A DNA stretch of 64,000 nt, taken from the sequence record PZ019084.1. The stretch is one strand, 5' to 3'. Source of the stretch: a phage. This document shows, piece by piece, positions 14,673 through 19,867 of this stretch (position 1 is the first letter of the stretch; every line of letters begins with the position of its first letter). A model generated the notes under the pieces. The model saw only the letters and a list, made by a program, of their open reading frames with translations, was not told the DNA's origin and ran no database searches. Position numbers and translations under genes: made by a program.

Positions 14673-15036
14673 ATTTAATGGCTTGAAGAAGACTAATAAT
14701 TCTCAAGCGGCTTCTTTCATCTTTAACCGTAAAAGAAAGAGGGTCGCCAGATTTCATAGTGATGGTGCATTCAAAACTAAAATCTTCAGGAACTTCTTCG
14801 AAGAAGTCAAATTCTTCATCATATATTAGAACATTACTCTGAAAACTGTGAAGAATTTTTCCGTCATTTCCAGATGCTGTACTAATCATTGTAACATTAT
14901 TACCTTTCATATCTTCAACGATAAATTCGCTTGTAGATATTACGGCATTAATAGAACCATTCCTATAAATAGAAGAAAGCAGATATTTCTTTTCTTCACC
15001 TTCACGAACACGATATTTCTTACCGATTTTAAACAT
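14665..15036 (-). CDS. hypothetical protein
   Basis: 123-aa ORF. Confidence 0.5.
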   Translation of the reverse strand: MFKIGKKYRVREGEEKKYLLSSIYRNGSINAVISTSEFIVEDMKGNNVTMISTASGNDGKILHSFQSNVLIYDEEFDFFEEVPEDFSFECTITMKSGDPLSFTVKDERSRLRIISLLQAIKFE

Positions 15037-15038
15037 AA

Positions 15039-15215
15039 TTATCCTTTAAGTAAGTCGTAAAATCCACCATTCACATGCTTAGGAGCAGAAGGCCGACGAG
15101 TAGACAGACGATGACATTTAGGGCAAACATCATTTTCTCGTTCAGAAATCTTTTTAATTTTTTCGTATTCATGCCCGCAATCTTCGGATTGGCATTTATA
15201 ATCATACATTGGCAT
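15039..15215 (-). CDS. zinc-ribbon protein (~58 aa, below ORF-track cutoff)
   Basis: hand-translated MPMYDYKCQSEDCGHEYEKIKKISERENDVCPKCHRLSTRRPSAPKHVNGGFYDLLKG with CxxxxC...CxxC; SD aaggaa. Confidence 0.5.
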   Translation of the reverse strand: MPMYDYKCQSEDCGHEYEKIKKISERENDVCPKCHRLSTRRPSAPKHVNGGFYDLLKG

Positions 15216-15217
15216 AA

Positions 15218-15637
15218 TTATTCCTTAAAGTGTGCTTTCAACATCTGATACAAGGACCATGCCTGTTCATTATTTTCAATAGTAACTTTCATGACAGGAA
15301 ATTCTGTGAAATCTTCTATTTGTTCTTGCTCTTCCTGCTCTTGCTCTTCAGATGCCTGATATGGATTTTCAACTTCATCAAAGAACCCAGCTTCGTTAGT
15401 AGAGAGCCAGATAAAGTTTTCGTCAAGGATATCACCATGTGTTGCATATCCAACTGTGCCGGTAGATGTCACAATTTTAGTAGGACGCCCGTAATAGTCA
15501 ACATCTAAAATTTTAAAAGGTTCCATACCTAAACGTCGTGCATAGATTCCGTTATCAGTATGGTCTTTAATAAAATTTTCTTGAGCCTGTTTATTTTTAA
15601 ATTGATACCATTTATTAACTTCAAATTTAATAGCCAT
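15218..15637 (-). CDS. hypothetical acidic protein
   Basis: 139 aa with [10 protein letters not shown] acidic stretch. Confidence 0.55.
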
Positions 15638-15852
15638 TAATAAATTTCCTTCCAGTAAGTTGTACCGTCTTCAGTGATTTCACGGAATACACCATAAATC
15701 GGTTGTTTATCACCAACCTTTTCATACACATAAACCGAAGTCAAGTGAGTAAACTTAGCAGTGTGCTCCTTTTGAACTACTACCAAATCTGGATCGAATA
15801 ATACATCTTCAAATTCGTCATTAGTGCATTTCTGAACAGTTTTACGTTTCAT
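15637..15852 (-). CDS. hypothetical protein
   Basis: 71-aa ORF, ATGA overlap with downstream gene. Confidence 0.5.
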
Positions 15853-16032
15853 TACAATTTCCTCATTAATTGAACAGTGGAGCGATGCGTTTCAGAAGAG
15901 TCAGTACCTTTGGCAAATTTTCCATTTTATTCTCCAAGTTGTTTTCTATATCAGTAGTTGATATTGATATAGTACCATAATCAACTACTGATGTATATAG
16001 TTTTATGAAAAAATTTTAAGCTTTATGCAAAT

Positions 16033-16452
16033 TTATGCTAAAGCTGCTTCGCACCATTTTTTAATTTGGAATTCAGGAACTACCATGAACTGGCCTGCAA
16101 AAACAATATTGTAGAGCTTGACGCCATCTTCTACCCAACGGTCCGAAATAAAACCAGCGACTTGATTCGTTGTCCATGGAGTTCCATCTGTTGCTGCCGC
16201 AATTGTGAATTTATGGTCTTTTACAACTAAAACTGAAGAACAAAGTTTCCATTTAAACGCGCTTTCTTCTGGCTCAATGAATTGGCTTGAGACATAACCA
16301 ATGTTACCATCAGCGTCACGAACTTTAACCTCGTTACGACCAAAAACTGGATCACTTACAGAAAGAACTTCAACCAGCTTTCCTGCAACTTTAGAACGAG
16401 AAGCAACGGATACATATACGTAATCACCGGTAGATAGATTTACAATATTCAT
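16033..16452 (-). CDS. MotB-like paralog
   Basis: 139 aa; N-terminal KOW-like segment and C-terminal DRWVEDGVKLYNIVFAGQF motif shared with adjacent 162-aa ORF. Confidence 0.5.
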   Translation of the reverse strand: MNIVNLSTGDYVYVSVASRSKVAGKLVEVLSVSDPVFGRNEVKVRDADGNIGYVSSQFIEPEESAFKWKLCSSVLVVKDHKFTIAAATDGTPWTTNQVAGFISDRWVEDGVKLYNIVFAGQFMVVPEFQIKKWCEAALA

Positions 16453-16468
16453 AATAATTCCTTAAACT

Positions 16469-16957
16469 TTATGCATAGAGAGCTTTGCTATAGTGTTTAA
16501 TCCAGCTTTCAGGAATGACTTTATATGTTCCTAAAAATACCACATTATACAGCTTAACACCGTCTTCTACCCACTGGTCGGTAATGTATGCACACATAGC
16601 ACGAGTATAAACAGCCGCTCCATCATCTTTGATAAATTTAAATTCACAAGGAGCAATGAACTTAATAGCCTGACCGAGTTTCCACTTAAAGTCTACACCT
16701 ACATGCGAAGTATCAATCGTTTCAATTCCTTTAGCAGGAACAGCTTTCAAAAACGCAGACTCAAGAAATTTCGCACGAACATAGCCAAACTGAGGTTTAG
16801 ACTTTCCATCTTTAGGAATGATACGCACTTTTACTTCAGAATCTTCATCTTTAACACCGTGTTTAAGCTGAATGCTTACAATTTCAACCAATTTTCCTGC
16901 TGCTTTAGAGCGGGATTTATCAGATACACGAGCTAATTCACCAATATTAATAATCAT
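16469..16957 (-). CDS. motB: MotB-like protein
   Basis: 162 aa, same length as T4 MotB; position upstream of dexA; early promoter directly upstream. Confidence 0.55.
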   Translation of the reverse strand: MIINIGELARVSDKSRSKAAGKLVEIVSIQLKHGVKDEDSEVKVRIIPKDGKSKPQFGYVRAKFLESAFLKAVPAKGIETIDTSHVGVDFKWKLGQAIKFIAPCEFKFIKDDGAAVYTRAMCAYITDQWVEDGVKLYNVVFLGTYKVIPESWIKHYSKALYA

Positions 16958-16999
16958 AGTTATCTCTCACTTGTTAAAAAGATTTTATACTCCACAGGA

Positions 17000-17032
17000 C
17001 CATTATACTCTGGTCCCAAGAGTTTGTAAACT
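17000..17032 (-). promoter_or_regulatory. T4-type early promoter
   Basis: minus strand GTTTAC (plus 17026-17031), 18-nt spacer with inverted repeat ggacca/tggtcc, TATAAT (plus 17002-17007). Confidence 0.55.
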
Positions 17033-17054
17033 ATTAATTCAAAATAGCTACTTT

Positions 17055-17738
17055 TTATCGTTTTGTTGGAAGGGATAGAGGATCGCAATCTTCCTCTGAC
17101 GGAGCATCTTCAAGACCCATAGCATATCGTAAAGCATACTTCATCATCAGGATGTCTTTCGCACAGTCATGAATAGAATCATGTGCAACGAATCCATCTA
17201 AAGTTCCCTTTGGAAGAGGACACGTGGTCATATCACGAACAAGAAGAAGTGCTTCAATTCTGGTACGAATATCACGCTGATTCCAGAATTTACATGGTTC
17301 TAACTTAAATGTGTCAAGTTCATTCTCAGAAACGCCATTAAGACGTTGAATATCGCGAATGAGATCGACTAAAATTGGAAAATCAAATGACATTCCACGG
17401 CACCAGCCTTGAGATTTCCAAGGATCGATGTTATGCGCATTGATGTAATCATTAAATTTTGCAATACCATCGATGGTGCTTACATCTTCATCTGATGGTG
17501 CAATATTTTTTCGAGCTTCAGGAGACTGATTTTTCCACCATTCAATAGTGCTTTTAGTAAAAAGACGATGTCCTTTTTGGCTTTTTAAATCAAATTTGAT
17601 TTTAATGCCACGTGAAACTAATTCATCAAATGTTTCAACTACTTCTGGATTAGGGTCAAAGGCAATAACAGCCAAATCAATAACAGCTGCTTTTTCACCA
17701 CTTCCCATTGTTTCAAAATCTATAATAAAATCAAACAT
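17055..17738 (-). CDS. dexA: exonuclease A (DEDD family)
   Basis: 227 aa, same length as T4 DexA; N-terminal DFETMG exonuclease motif. Confidence 0.85.
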   Translation of the reverse strand: MFDFIIDFETMGSGEKAAVIDLAVIAFDPNPEVVETFDELVSRGIKIKFDLKSQKGHRLFTKSTIEWWKNQSPEARKNIAPSDEDVSTIDGIAKFNDYINAHNIDPWKSQGWCRGMSFDFPILVDLIRDIQRLNGVSENELDTFKLEPCKFWNQRDIRTRIEALLLVRDMTTCPLPKGTLDGFVAHDSIHDCAKDILMMKYALRYAMGLEDAPSEEDCDPLSLPTKR

Positions 17739-18013
17739 TAAATTTTCCTCGCTAAATCGCGAATTTGACCTACAGTATAATCTTGGATATAAACTTTATT
17801 AATGGGCTCATCAATAAATTTTGCCATAGATTCAATATCTTTTTGTATCTCTTCAAGACTGTATACTATCTTTAAAGCTTTTTCGCGAATAGTAACATTA
17901 TCAGGTCCTGAATTTTCTTGGATGACAGCTTTAACATTTGTCATAAGAGATTTAAACTGATGCAAACTTAATTCAATCATTAATAACCGCCTTATAAAGA
18001 TGGCTAATTTCAC
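17738..18013 (-). CDS. hypothetical protein (dexA.1 position)
   Basis: 91-aa ORF. Confidence 0.5.
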   Translation of the reverse strand: MKLAIFIRRLLMIELSLHQFKSLMTNVKAVIQENSGPDNVTIREKALKIVYSLEEIQKDIESMAKFIDEPINKVYIQDYTVGQIRDLARKI

Positions 18014-18218
18014 CTAAAACATAATCACTGATTGTAACAGTTTTCACTTCACCGCAAAAGAATTCTAATGCAATCAAATCTCGTTCAATTTCTTCCAATT
18101 GAAGCATTAACTTGCCTGATTCAATTTTCACGTTTTTGCGATTTTTACTATAAGCTATTTCATAAATTTCGCTCACTTTATCTTGAAGTAGATAAAACTG
18201 GTCTTTAGTTATTTCCAC
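17973..18218 (-). CDS. hypothetical protein (dexA.2 position)
   Basis: 81-aa ORF. Confidence 0.5.
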   Translation of the reverse strand: MEITKDQFYLLQDKVSEIYEIAYSKNRKNVKIESGKLMLQLEEIERDLIALEFFCGEVKTVTISDYVLGEISHLYKAVIND

Positions 18219-18239
18219 GAATAGCTTCCTCGAATTTAA

Positions 18240-19559
18240 TCATACGTAAAACACATCATAACGACCACGAGTGACACCAACATAAAGAAGCTGCTGAGCT
18301 AGTTCAGCATCTGCATAATGAATACAAGGCGTATAGATAAAAGCACGGTCTACAGACATGCCCTGAGCTTTGTGGAATGTTGATGCAGGAAGTGCTTTCA
18401 CTTTACTAAACTGTGATTTAGCATCCCAAAAATCACTCCACGGAGCTTTTCCACCTTTATTCCAATTTTTATAAGTTTCTGCCGTTTTACCTAAAAATAA
18501 GTTAAACTTATACAGCTCTTCATCAGATGAAATTATTTTAATCTTTTCACGATAATATTCATCATCGCCGTAAGTTTCTACTGTTAAATCCCAATGACGA
18601 ATTAGATATTCTCCAGGAACACCACGAGCTTTAACAAATGTTGATGTATACTCTGCTTCTATAATACGAACTAATTGTCCGTTATTAAAAATAATTTCTG
18701 ACACAGGCTTTCCATCAATTTTATATGTTTTAATTAACGGTTCCTGCATTACAATAATTTCACCGACAATAAAATCTTTATCAGTTTCAAAAATCTTTTT
18801 GCGAATAATGCTATTTAACTTATCAACAGATTTATTCGTAAATGCCATTACACGATTTTCAAACAAATCATCTAGTGATTTTACGATTGAAAAATAATTT
18901 ACCATAAAATCGCGTAAAGCGGTATCACCGGTAAATCCACGTACTCCATGCCCGTCAACAACTTTATCATAAATCCACTTACCGTTGCGAACATCAGTAG
19001 CTACATCAATAATAGGAGCATTACTACGTTTAACTTCAGTGAGTTCACACTGATAAAAATCTTTATGTGTAAAGAACGGACTGATATAAGCAGTGTTTTC
19101 TCCTGGGTCAACAGGTCTAATTTGCTTATTATCGCCTATTCCAATTATAGTACACCACGGCGGGATAGTTGAAAGCAGAATTTTAAATAGCTTTCTATCA
19201 TACATTGACACTTCGTCGCAGATTAATACTCTACATTTAGCTAAATCCGGTACTTCTTTTTGTTCAAAAAGAACGTTTTCTTCATATGTTACTGGGTTAA
19301 TTTTGAGAATACTGTGAATAGTACTCGCTTCTTTCCCTGACAGTTTTGAAAGAATCTTTTTAGCTGCATGAGTAGGAGCTGCTAAAATAATGCCAGTTTC
19401 GCCCGTAGATATTAAAGCTTCAATGATGAACTTAGTAAGAGTAGTTTTACCAGTACCAGCAGGTCCATTAATAGTTACATGATGTTTCTTTTCTTTAATA
19501 GCCCTCATAACGATGTTAAAGGCATTTTTCTGGCCTTCGGTCAAATCATCAAATGTCAT
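18240..19559 (-). CDS. dda: Dda DNA helicase (SF1)
   Basis: 439 aa, same length as T4 Dda; Walker A GPAGTGKT and DEVSM Walker B. Confidence 0.9.
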   Translation of the reverse strand: MTFDDLTEGQKNAFNIVMRAIKEKKHHVTINGPAGTGKTTLTKFIIEALISTGETGIILAAPTHAAKKILSKLSGKEASTIHSILKINPVTYEENVLFEQKEVPDLAKCRVLICDEVSMYDRKLFKILLSTIPPWCTIIGIGDNKQIRPVDPGENTAYISPFFTHKDFYQCELTEVKRSNAPIIDVATDVRNGKWIYDKVVDGHGVRGFTGDTALRDFMVNYFSIVKSLDDLFENRVMAFTNKSVDKLNSIIRKKIFETDKDFIVGEIIVMQEPLIKTYKIDGKPVSEIIFNNGQLVRIIEAEYTSTFVKARGVPGEYLIRHWDLTVETYGDDEYYREKIKIISSDEELYKFNLFLGKTAETYKNWNKGGKAPWSDFWDAKSQFSKVKALPASTFHKAQGMSVDRAFIYTPCIHYADAELAQQLLYVGVTRGRYDVFYV

Positions 19560-19867
19560 CGTAAATTCCCTGCAATTGGTATACTAACAATACGCCCAGT
19601 ATCTAAAATTCGCCGATATAATCTTTGTGTGTCTACATCAGGCTTAACATGTTTAACTTCTATTTTATTAAACCAAAACTTACGTGGAGTCTCAACTAAT
19701 CTCGGAATTCCCATACCTAAAGCTAGTCGATACTGCTCTTTAAGAGTGGTAAATACTTTATCAGCAATTTCCCTTTCAAAAAATACAGCAGGGCGGTGTT
19801 CATCAAGAGGAACAGGCACTGCAAATCCATCTTTATCTCTGTACACTATCGCATATACATAAAACAT
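19556..19867 (-). CDS. hypothetical protein (dda.1 position)
   Basis: 103-aa ORF. Confidence 0.5.
   Translation of the reverse strand: MFYVYAIVYRDKDGFAVPVPLDEHRPAVFFEREIADKVFTTLKEQYRLALGMGIPRLVETPRKFWFNKIEVKHVKPDVDTQRLYRRILDTGRIVSIPIAGNLR

What the first reader, a model, noticed from the sequence alone, without database searches (positions are those of the whole stretch)
16033..16957. Tandem MotB-like paralogs
Two adjacent proteins (139 and 162 aa) share an N-terminal KOW-like segment and a C-terminal D(Q/R)WVEDGVKLYN(V/I)VF motif. A duplicated MotB-type DNA-binding protein suggests subfunctionalisation in host-takeover regulation.
Basis: partly seen in the sequence, partly recalled or inferred. 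Interest (0 to 1): 0.35.

Follow-up and report, generated by a model that had tools for sequence, protein, structure and literature searches.

The report
T4 MotB plus known short paralog
Two neighbouring early genes of a T4-like phage are the known DNA-coating protein MotB and an old, shorter copy of it; the pair is real but is already annotated and catalogued in many related phages, so it is ordinary.

Summary
On the minus strand, 16469-16957 encodes a 162-aa protein and 16033-16452 a 139-aa protein. They are 37% identical (BLASTP E 1e-24) and share the N-terminal SRSKxAGKLVE segment and the C-terminal D(Q/R)WVEDGVKLYN(V/I)VF motif.

The 162-aa protein is the ortholog of T4 MotB (96% identity; Pfam PF17613 over its full length, E 2e-109). 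The 139-aa protein is a diverged paralog without the inter-domain linker. It is 100% identical to proteins that sources name 'MotB-like transcriptional regulator' or 'MotB-like protein' (RB68, PP01).

Orthologs of at least 80% identity occur in 208 of 778 phage records that carry a MotB-family gene. It sat directly downstream of motB in the six genomes I examined. It evolves under purifying selection (dN/dS 0.09-0.25).

Patterson-West et al. (Viruses 2021, PMC7827196) already list nine phages with two MotB-branch genes, for example RB69ORF010c 'similar to motB'. They also published the KOW/OB-fold domain prediction.

'Subfunctionalisation' is untested and not favoured. The MotB here differs from T4's at only 6 of 162 residues, and T4 lacks the short copy. 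The short copy looks like an accessory gene gained or lost by recombination. Its biochemistry is unknown.

Novelty: already known. Interest: low.

The parts
16469..16957 (-). motB ortholog (162 aa), T4-type, basic (pI 9.3)
   Evidence: 96% identical to T4 MotB. Pfam PF17613 positions 1-162 of 162, E 2.2e-109. Lies between dexA and cef, as in T4. The AF2 model shows two beta-barrels joined by a disordered linker at residues 70-83.
16033..16452 (-). short MotB paralog (139 aa), no inter-domain linker, pI 5.4
   Evidence: 37% identical to MotB, E 1e-24. PF17613 at 72.1 bits and PHROG 1671 at 9.8e-51. 100% identical to cluster P0001, named 'MotB-like transcriptional regulator [Enterobacteria phage RB68]', and to PP01 BBC14345.1. 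dN/dS 0.09-0.25 against orthologs. AF2 mean pLDDT 81, two beta-barrels.
17002..17030 (-). sigma-70 (T4 early type) promoter-like site, TTTACA-17 nt-TATAAT, upstream of motB
   Evidence: 11 of 12 consensus matches, the best site in 15500-18300. The surrounding 112 bp are 99% identical to the region upstream of T4 motB. A consensus match only; function is inferred.
16964..16968 (-). Shine-Dalgarno-like GAGAG, 6 nt before the motB ATG
   Evidence: Read directly from the sequence.
16459..16463 (-). Shine-Dalgarno-like AAGGA, 6 nt before the ATG of the short paralog, inside the 16-nt spacer after the motB stop codon
   Evidence: Read directly from the sequence. No promoter-like or terminator-like site lies between the two genes on the minus strand, so co-transcription is inferred.
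16462..16475 (-). upstream copy of the 14-nt direct repeat TGCATAAAG(T/C)TTAA, at the 3' end of motB, bounding the short-paralog module
   Evidence: the repeat finder family D3.
16016..16029 (-). downstream copy of the 14-nt direct repeat, just past the stop codon of the short paralog
   Evidence: the repeat finder family D3. Similarity to T4 resumes exactly here: window 15840-16029 matches the T4 cef-motB spacer plus the motB 3' end at 94%.

Best explanation
The window is the dda-dexA-motB-cef-goF early region of a T4-like phage (Tequatrovirus).

Gene 16469-16957 is motB. In T4, MotB is an abundant early protein that binds host and phage DNA without sequence specificity. It co-purifies with H-NS and StpA, alters H-NS footprints, is toxic when overexpressed, and raises burst size about 2-fold. 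These properties are shown for T4 and inferred here from 96% identity.

Gene 16033-16452 is an ancient paralog of motB, belonging to the same group as the second MotB-branch genes such as RB69ORF010c. It keeps both beta-barrel domains and the invariant FKW...D.WVE.GVKLYN.VF..G core. It has lost the flexible linker and the lysine-rich hairpin of the N-terminal domain.

It is most likely co-transcribed with motB from the early promoter 45 nt upstream of motB. It is most likely a second nucleic-acid/nucleoid-binding protein with altered affinity or partners, acting alongside MotB early in infection. This function is inferred.

It behaves as an accessory gene that is gained or lost by recombination at short repeats, not as one half of a subfunctionalised pair.
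For: Identity and synteny.

Paralogy.

MotB biology: PMC6070864 abstract and PMC7827196 discussion. DNA compaction is taken from the title of Son et al. 2021 in a reference list and from a description in PMC13096335.

The short paralog is a working gene:
- dN/dS is 0.09-0.25 with dS up to 0.66, similar to motB at 0.10-0.26.
- Its length is fixed at 139 aa in the intact, non-frameshifted orthologs.
- Orthologs of at least 80% identity occur in 208 of 778 phage records.

Shared architecture: both AF2 models have 4-5 strands in the N-terminal barrel and 5 strands in the C-terminal barrel. The MotB linker at residues 70-83 is disordered and is absent from the short protein.

The C-terminal domains appear interchangeable. 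Natural hybrids (P0028) carry the MotB N-terminal domain and linker fused to the short paralog's C-terminal domain. They were read on five contigs, and the three places shown come from three different sequencing runs. In two of these places they sit downstream of motB.1 and in the third upstream of hyp89 and cef. Pieced together, this puts them where the tandem pair would sit.

Accessory behaviour:
- T4 lacks the module, and its sequence joins at the 14-nt repeat.
- T4-type MotB is 96% identical with or without the short neighbour.
- The short copy sits next to either a T4-type or an RB69-type MotB.

Expression signals.
Against: - No experiment exists for the 139-aa protein.
- It is not basic (pI 5.4, net charge -2, against pI 9.3 and +7 for MotB), which could mean weaker or no DNA binding. 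This is not decisive, because MotB-family proteins of about 160-190 aa from several other phages are also acidic.
- Fold matches are weak (TM 0.25-0.42). They point to Tudor, KOW and SH3-like barrels, which bind proteins or RNA as often as DNA.
- Co-transcription rests only on the spacing and on consensus scans.
Confidence: 0.6

Rival explanations
1. The short paralog does not bind DNA itself. Instead it modulates MotB: it co-assembles with MotB through the conserved C-terminal barrel and tempers DNA coating or toxicity. This would be analogous to truncated H-NS antagonists acting on H-NS.
For: - Near-neutral or acidic charge across orthologs, against the basic T4-type MotB.
- Loss of the lysine-rich hairpin and of the linker.
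- Placement 16 nt downstream of motB, probably in the same transcript.
- MotB is highly toxic when overexpressed (PMC6070864).
- The invariant C-terminal motif is shared by MotB, the short paralog and MotB.1, as would be expected of an interaction surface.
Against: - There is no evidence that MotB oligomerises through its C-terminal domain.
- T4 and about 570 of 778 records do without the short copy.
- Many full-length MotBs are themselves acidic.
Confidence: 0.2
2. The short paralog has taken on a different target, RNA or a host or phage protein, and uses its two SH3/Tudor/KOW-like barrels as a binding module unrelated to the nucleoid.
For: - Foldseek's best PDB matches are protein- or RNA-binding tandem barrels: 53BP1 and UHRF1 tandem Tudor domains and DSIF KOW6-7.
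- Neighbouring family members with the same C-terminal motif (MotB.1) have LSm-like N-terminal domains, which have been suggested to act on RNA (PMC12152347).
- The net positive charge has been lost.
Against: - TM-scores are low (0.25-0.42), so the fold matches carry little functional weight.
- The residues invariant between MotB and the short copy are the same.
- Natural hybrids swap the C-terminal domains, which argues for a conserved activity.
Confidence: 0.15
3. The 139-aa ORF is a decaying duplicate with no function.
For: It is absent from T4 and from most relatives. It lies in a region that is dispensable in the laboratory (PMC7827196).
Against: - dN/dS is 0.09-0.25 at dS 0.3-0.66.
- The intact orthologs all keep a 139-codon frame, apart from a few frameshifted or truncated database entries.
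- It has a good Shine-Dalgarno sequence.
- The AF2 model is confident, pLDDT 81.
Confidence: 0.03

Closest known systems
Bacteriophage T4 MotB (NP_049626.1; Pfam PF17613; PHROG 1671)
   Same: The 162-aa protein is its ortholog: 156 of 162 residues identical, same length, same position between dexA and cef, and the same upstream promoter region. The 139-aa protein shares both domains and every invariant family residue.
   Different: The 139-aa protein is only 37% identical. It lacks the roughly 20-residue disordered linker and the IIPKDGKSKPQ hairpin, and it is not basic.
Second MotB-branch genes of RB69-like and some T4-like phages (RB69ORF010c 'similar to motB' NP_861700.1; the RB51, Sf24 and SHSML-52-1 second copies; RB68/PP01 'MotB-like protein')
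   Same: This is the group the 139-aa gene belongs to. It is 100% identical to the RB68/PP01 protein and 84-92% identical to the Mosigvirus-type copies. It always has 139 codons and lay immediately downstream of motB in the genomes examined. The group is catalogued in PMC7827196 Tables S4 and S6.
   Different: Here it sits next to a T4-type (162-aa) MotB instead of the RB69-type (151-158 aa) MotB, and motB.1 and motB.2 are deleted. Only 5 of 686 records cover at least 80% of this local arrangement.
T4 MotB.1 family (categories 2-4 of PMC7827196; LSm-like N-terminal domain per PMC12152347)
   Same: It shares the C-terminal WV(T/S)DQWVEDGV.L.NVV..G.F.VVP motif: 20 of 36 residues identical with PP01 MotB.1, E 3e-11.
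   Different: The N-terminal domain is different. Neither protein in this window is a MotB.1, and the window carries no motB.1 or motB.2.
Tandem SH3-like barrel modules (53BP1 and UHRF1 tandem Tudor; Spt5/DSIF KOW6-KOW7)
   Same: The overall predicted shape, two small beta-barrels in tandem. Foldseek E 7e-4 to 1e-2.
   Different: There is no sequence relationship: 9-17% identity, TM 0.25-0.42, Pfam KOW not hit. This is a resemblance in fold only.

Membership tests
MotB family (Pfam PF17613 / PHROG 1671) | Profile match above the curated cut-off of 25 bits | tested here: met
   The 162-aa protein scores 362.9 bits over profile positions 1-162. The 139-aa protein scores 72.1 bits in two stretches, the best covering residues 65-137. 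PHROG 1671 gives 7.7e-77 and 9.8e-51.
MotB family (Pfam PF17613 / PHROG 1671) | Direct similarity to T4 MotB over both domains | tested here: met
   The 162-aa protein is 96% identical, E 6e-119. The 139-aa protein is 37% identical over residues 6-139, E 3e-25.
MotB family (Pfam PF17613 / PHROG 1671) | Genomic position in the early dexA-to-cef block, on the same strand | tested here: met
   The minus-strand order is dda, dexA.2, dexA.1, dexA, motB, short paralog, cef, goF. T4, PP01 and CrRp10 have the corresponding order.
MotB family (Pfam PF17613 / PHROG 1671) | Two-domain build: N-terminal KOW/SH3-like barrel plus C-terminal beta-barrel (published as an OB-fold) | tested here: inconclusive
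   AF2 models of both proteins show two beta-barrels, pLDDT 80-81. Foldseek matches to tandem Tudor and KOW6-7 have low TM. I could not discriminate an OB-fold from an SH3-like barrel for the C-terminal domain.
MotB family (Pfam PF17613 / PHROG 1671) | Tight non-specific DNA binding, co-purification with H-NS and StpA, toxicity in E. coli | not testable with these tools
   Shown only for T4 MotB (PMC6070864; PMC7827196). Inferred for the 162-aa ortholog and unknown for the 139-aa paralog.
MotB.1 family | LSm-like N-terminal domain distinct from that of MotB, with only the C-terminal domain shared with MotB | tested here: not met
   The N-terminus of the 139-aa protein aligns with the MotB N-terminus. 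Against PP01 MotB.1, only residues 91-126 align.
KOW domain (Pfam PF00467) | Sequence-profile match to KOW | tested here: not met
   No KOW hit at E<=1 for either protein; only SH3_3 at E 0.079. The published HHpred result gave probability above 50% (PMC7827196).
KOW domain (Pfam PF00467) | SH3-like five-stranded barrel fold | tested here: inconclusive
   Foldseek hit to DSIF KOW6-KOW7 (5ohq) at E 2.7e-3, TM 0.34-0.42. BFVD hits to proteins named 'KOW domain-containing protein' from phages PS2 and Merlin at E 2e-4 to 9e-4.

The most novel reading that the evidence does not exclude
The short, linker-less, non-basic copy is a dedicated partner or antagonist of MotB that co-assembles with it on DNA and tunes nucleoid compaction and H-NS displacement. 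The tandem locus would also act as a recombination cassette that shuffles the N- and C-terminal barrels between paralogs, as the natural MotB-NTD::short-CTD hybrids suggest. That would give T4-like phages a rapidly adjustable set of nucleoid-remodelling proteins.
Probability: 0.15. Interest if true: 0.4.

Novelty: already known. Interest (0 to 1): 0.12.

Why it matters
It matters little beyond correct annotation. The pair is annotated as 'MotB-like transcriptional regulator (x2)' in RefSeq phage genomes, and the occurrence of two MotB-branch genes per genome is tabulated in the literature.

The one open point is that the second copy has never been studied. It is conserved under selection in about a quarter of MotB-bearing phages. 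Because T4 lacks it, work on T4 says nothing about it. A simple DNA-binding and toxicity comparison with MotB would show which parts of MotB, the linker and the basic hairpin, are needed for nucleoid coating.

Tried and rejected
- Sequence search of the PDB with MotB alone and with the family profile found no solved relative.
- Rfam at E<=1 over 15000-18500 found nothing.
- Using charge as evidence against DNA binding by the short copy was dropped as decisive, because many full-length MotBs are also acidic.
Neither was the comparison of the N-terminal with the C-terminal domain, so there is no evidence of an internal duplication.
- The pseudogene reading was rejected on dN/dS.
- The idea that the hybrid proteins P0028 and P0029 are assembly artefacts was checked. 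P0028 was read on five contigs, and the three places shown come from three different sequencing runs with coherent gene contexts, so P0028 at least is probably real. P0029 rests on a single contig.
- Son et al. 2021 (NAR, PMC8450097) could not be read, by DOI or by PMC id. DNA compaction by MotB is therefore cited only from its title and from another paper's description.
- Antisense ORFs on the plus strand (16066-16230, 16703-16936 and others) lie inside the two genes and were treated as spurious.

Full report
**What is there**

The window is AT-rich (about 35% GC) with negative GC skew throughout, and around the finding the long ORFs run on the minus strand. The minus-strand ORFs near the finding are:
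- dda helicase, 18240-19559
- two small ORFs matching dexA.2 and dexA.1
- dexA, 17055-17738
- a 162-aa ORF, 16469-16957
- a 139-aa ORF, 16033-16452
- cef, 15637-15852
- goF, 15218-15637
- 39.2, 15039-15215

Megablast of 15000-19600 finds 732 phage records, almost all Tequatrovirus and relatives. The best full-length match is 97.6% identical (Citrobacter phage CrRp10), where the two genes are annotated 'MotB-like transcriptional regulator (x2)'.

**Check of the observation**

The two proteins align end to end: 37% identity, E 1e-24. The N-terminal SRSK(A/V)AGKLVE segment and the C-terminal D(Q/R)WVEDGVKLYN(V/I)VF motif are both present. In a 33-sequence alignment of the family, the invariant columns are VKV, YV, FKW.L and I.D.WVE.GVKLYN.VF.G..V.PE.

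**Identity of the two genes**

The 162-aa protein is 96% identical to T4 MotB and covers Pfam PF17613 from end to end, E 2.2e-109.

The 139-aa protein passes the same Pfam model (72 bits against a cut-off of 25) and PHROG 1671 at 9.8e-51. It is 100% identical to a protein cluster that sources name 'MotB-like transcriptional regulator [Enterobacteria phage RB68]' or 'MotB-like protein', and to PP01 BBC14345.1.

It is not a MotB.1. Only residues 91-126 align with PP01 MotB.1, whose N-terminal domain belongs to the LSm-like GoF/Frd.2 group (PMC12152347).

**Distribution and evolution**

A tblastn search with the 139-aa protein finds 778 phage records. Of these, 208 hold an ortholog of at least 80% identity. 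The other 570 hold only MotB at below 60% identity.

In the genomes I fetched, the short copy lies directly downstream of motB:
- SHSML-52-1, JK45, AV118 and phiE142, 9 nt apart
- PP01 and CrRp10

T4 itself has motB, motB.1 and motB.2, but not the short copy.

Pairwise Nei-Gojobori estimates give dN/dS of 0.09-0.25 for the short copy, with dS up to 0.66. For motB they give 0.10-0.26. Both genes are therefore maintained by selection.

At the DNA level the paralogs share only 13-14-nt patches, so the duplication is old.

**How the local arrangement arose (blastn-short)**

- Window 15840-16029 is 94% identical to the T4 cef-motB spacer plus the last 6 nt of T4 motB.
- The 446-bp module carrying the short copy is bounded by a 14-nt direct repeat, TGCATAAAG(T/C)TTAA.
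- T4 therefore equals this window minus the module. This fits gain or loss by recombination at the repeat.
- Window 16940-17051 is 99% identical to the region upstream of T4 motB. It then joins directly to the 3' end of dexA. About 984 bp holding motB.1 and motB.2 are cleanly missing.
- Only 5 of 686 records cover at least 80% of this arrangement. The window is a rare mosaic of common parts.

**Expression signals**

The best promoter-like site in 15500-18300 is TTTACA-17-TATAAT at 17030-17002 on the minus strand, just upstream of motB. It lies in the stretch conserved with T4.

Both genes have Shine-Dalgarno-like sequences 6 nt before their ATG. They are separated by 16 nt with no promoter- or terminator-like site between them. 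Co-transcription as early genes is inferred, not shown.

**Structure**

AlphaFold2 with the family alignment gives confident models: mean pLDDT 81.1 for the short copy and 80.4 for MotB. Each has an N-terminal barrel of 4-5 strands and a C-terminal barrel of 5 strands.

MotB residues 70-83 are disordered. The short copy lacks this linker and also the lysine-rich hairpin IIPKDGKSKPQ.

Foldseek against the PDB gives only weak matches, E 7e-4 to 1e-2 with TM 0.25-0.42. The targets are tandem Tudor domains (53BP1, UHRF1), Agenet domains and DSIF KOW6-KOW7. Against BFVD, the top hits are MotB relatives and two proteins named 'KOW domain-containing protein'.

No solved structure is related by sequence. 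Pfam KOW is not hit and my hhalign test was not significant. 'KOW-like' therefore remains a fold-level suggestion, as already published from HHpred (PMC7827196).

**What is already known**

T4 MotB:
- It binds DNA tightly without sequence specificity, both unmodified and T4-modified DNA.
- It co-purifies with H-NS and StpA.
- It is toxic in E. coli.
- It doubles burst size.
- It does not noticeably change T4 early or middle transcription (PMC6070864).
- Overexpression de-represses some H-NS-silenced host genes and changes H-NS footprints (PMC7827196).
- A later paper reports DNA compaction. I know this only from its title and from a citation.

PMC7827196 section 3.2 and Table S6 state that several genomes carry more than one motB or motB.1. 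They list nine phages with two MotB-branch genes: RB69, RB51, Sf24, SHSML-52-1, JS09, PhAPEC2, APCEc01, Shf125875 and O157 typing phage 3. Table S4 includes 'RB69ORF010c similar to motB' at 35-38% identity to T4 MotB. The tandem pair is therefore already known. Only the biochemistry of the second copy is unexplored.

**Function of the short copy**

The best-supported reading is a second nucleic-acid/nucleoid-binding protein that acts with MotB early in infection. The arguments for it:
- It has the same two domains and the same invariant residues.
- It is under purifying selection.
- It is probably in the same transcript.
- Natural hybrids exist in which the MotB N-terminal domain and linker are fused to the short copy's C-terminal domain. 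P0028 was read on five contigs, and the three places shown come from three sequencing runs. In two it follows motB.1 and in the third it precedes hyp89 and cef, so together they place it where the pair would be. This suggests the C-terminal domains are interchangeable.

The arguments against it:
- The short copy is not basic: pI 5.4 and net charge -2, against pI 9.3 and +7 for MotB. The weight of this is limited, because MotB-family proteins of about 160-190 aa from several other phages are also acidic.
- Its fold relatives bind proteins or RNA as often as DNA.

The rival readings are a MotB modulator or antagonist, a protein with a new RNA or protein target, and, effectively excluded, a decaying duplicate.

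Classical subfunctionalisation is not favoured. T4-type MotB has almost the same sequence whether or not the short copy is present. The short copy also pairs with two different MotB types.

**Verdict**

Novelty: already known. Interest: low.

Noticed in passing
window 16016-16029 and 16462-16475 (minus strand): A 14-nt direct repeat, TGCATAAAG(T/C)TTAA, bounds the 446-bp module that carries the short MotB paralog. T4 lacks the module and its sequence joins exactly at the repeat, so the gene appears to be gained or lost by recombination at this repeat.
   Followed up: partly
window 16958-17054: Relative to T4, about 984 bp containing motB.1 and motB.2 are cleanly missing. The region upstream of motB (99% identical to T4) abuts the 3' end of dexA.
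   Followed up: yes
L008 3001-3492, L009 2199-2690, L010 37-528, L011 1373-1894: Natural hybrid genes (P0028, P0029, P0031) encode the MotB N-terminal domain and linker fused to the short paralog's C-terminal domain. P0028 was read on five contigs, and the three places shown come from three sequencing runs that together put it where the tandem pair would sit. This implies recombination between the paralogs.
   Followed up: partly
window 15947-15995 (minus strand): There is a strong stem-loop between the short paralog and cef: RNA fold -21.5 kcal/mol, z = -5.2, and none of 200 shuffles folds as well. It has no following T-run and no Rfam match. The surrounding spacer is 94% identical to T4. Its role is unknown; it could affect processing, stability or act as an atypical terminator.
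   Followed up: partly
window 15866-15925 (minus strand): A 19-codon mini-ORF, MENLPKVLTLLKRIAPLFN, retains the start and end of an 89/93-aa hypothetical gene that is intact at this position in PP01 and CrRp10. The interior is deleted here. The same stretch of T4 aligns at 94% without the insert, so T4 appears to lack the gene too.
   Followed up: partly
L003 2792-3151 (T4 motB.1) versus L001 3726-4151 (PP01 motB.1): T4 MotB.1 (119 aa) ends ...GGWVTDQWIGRWR*. It is therefore truncated inside the conserved C-terminal motif relative to PP01 MotB.1 (...CGWVTDQWVEDGVELLNVVHAGDFSVVPRSAVVAILN), and it no longer hits Pfam PF17613. The MotB.1 of the T4 reference strain may lack a complete C-terminal domain.
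   Followed up: partly
alignment A1 (MotB family members P0032-P0100): The net charge of MotB orthologs varies widely. T4-type proteins have pI of about 9.3. Other MotB-family proteins of about 160-190 aa, several carrying an acidic insert (VEEVESHDGYVCESNDIRG) in the linker, have pI 4.7-6. This is odd for a family defined by non-specific DNA binding.
   Followed up: no
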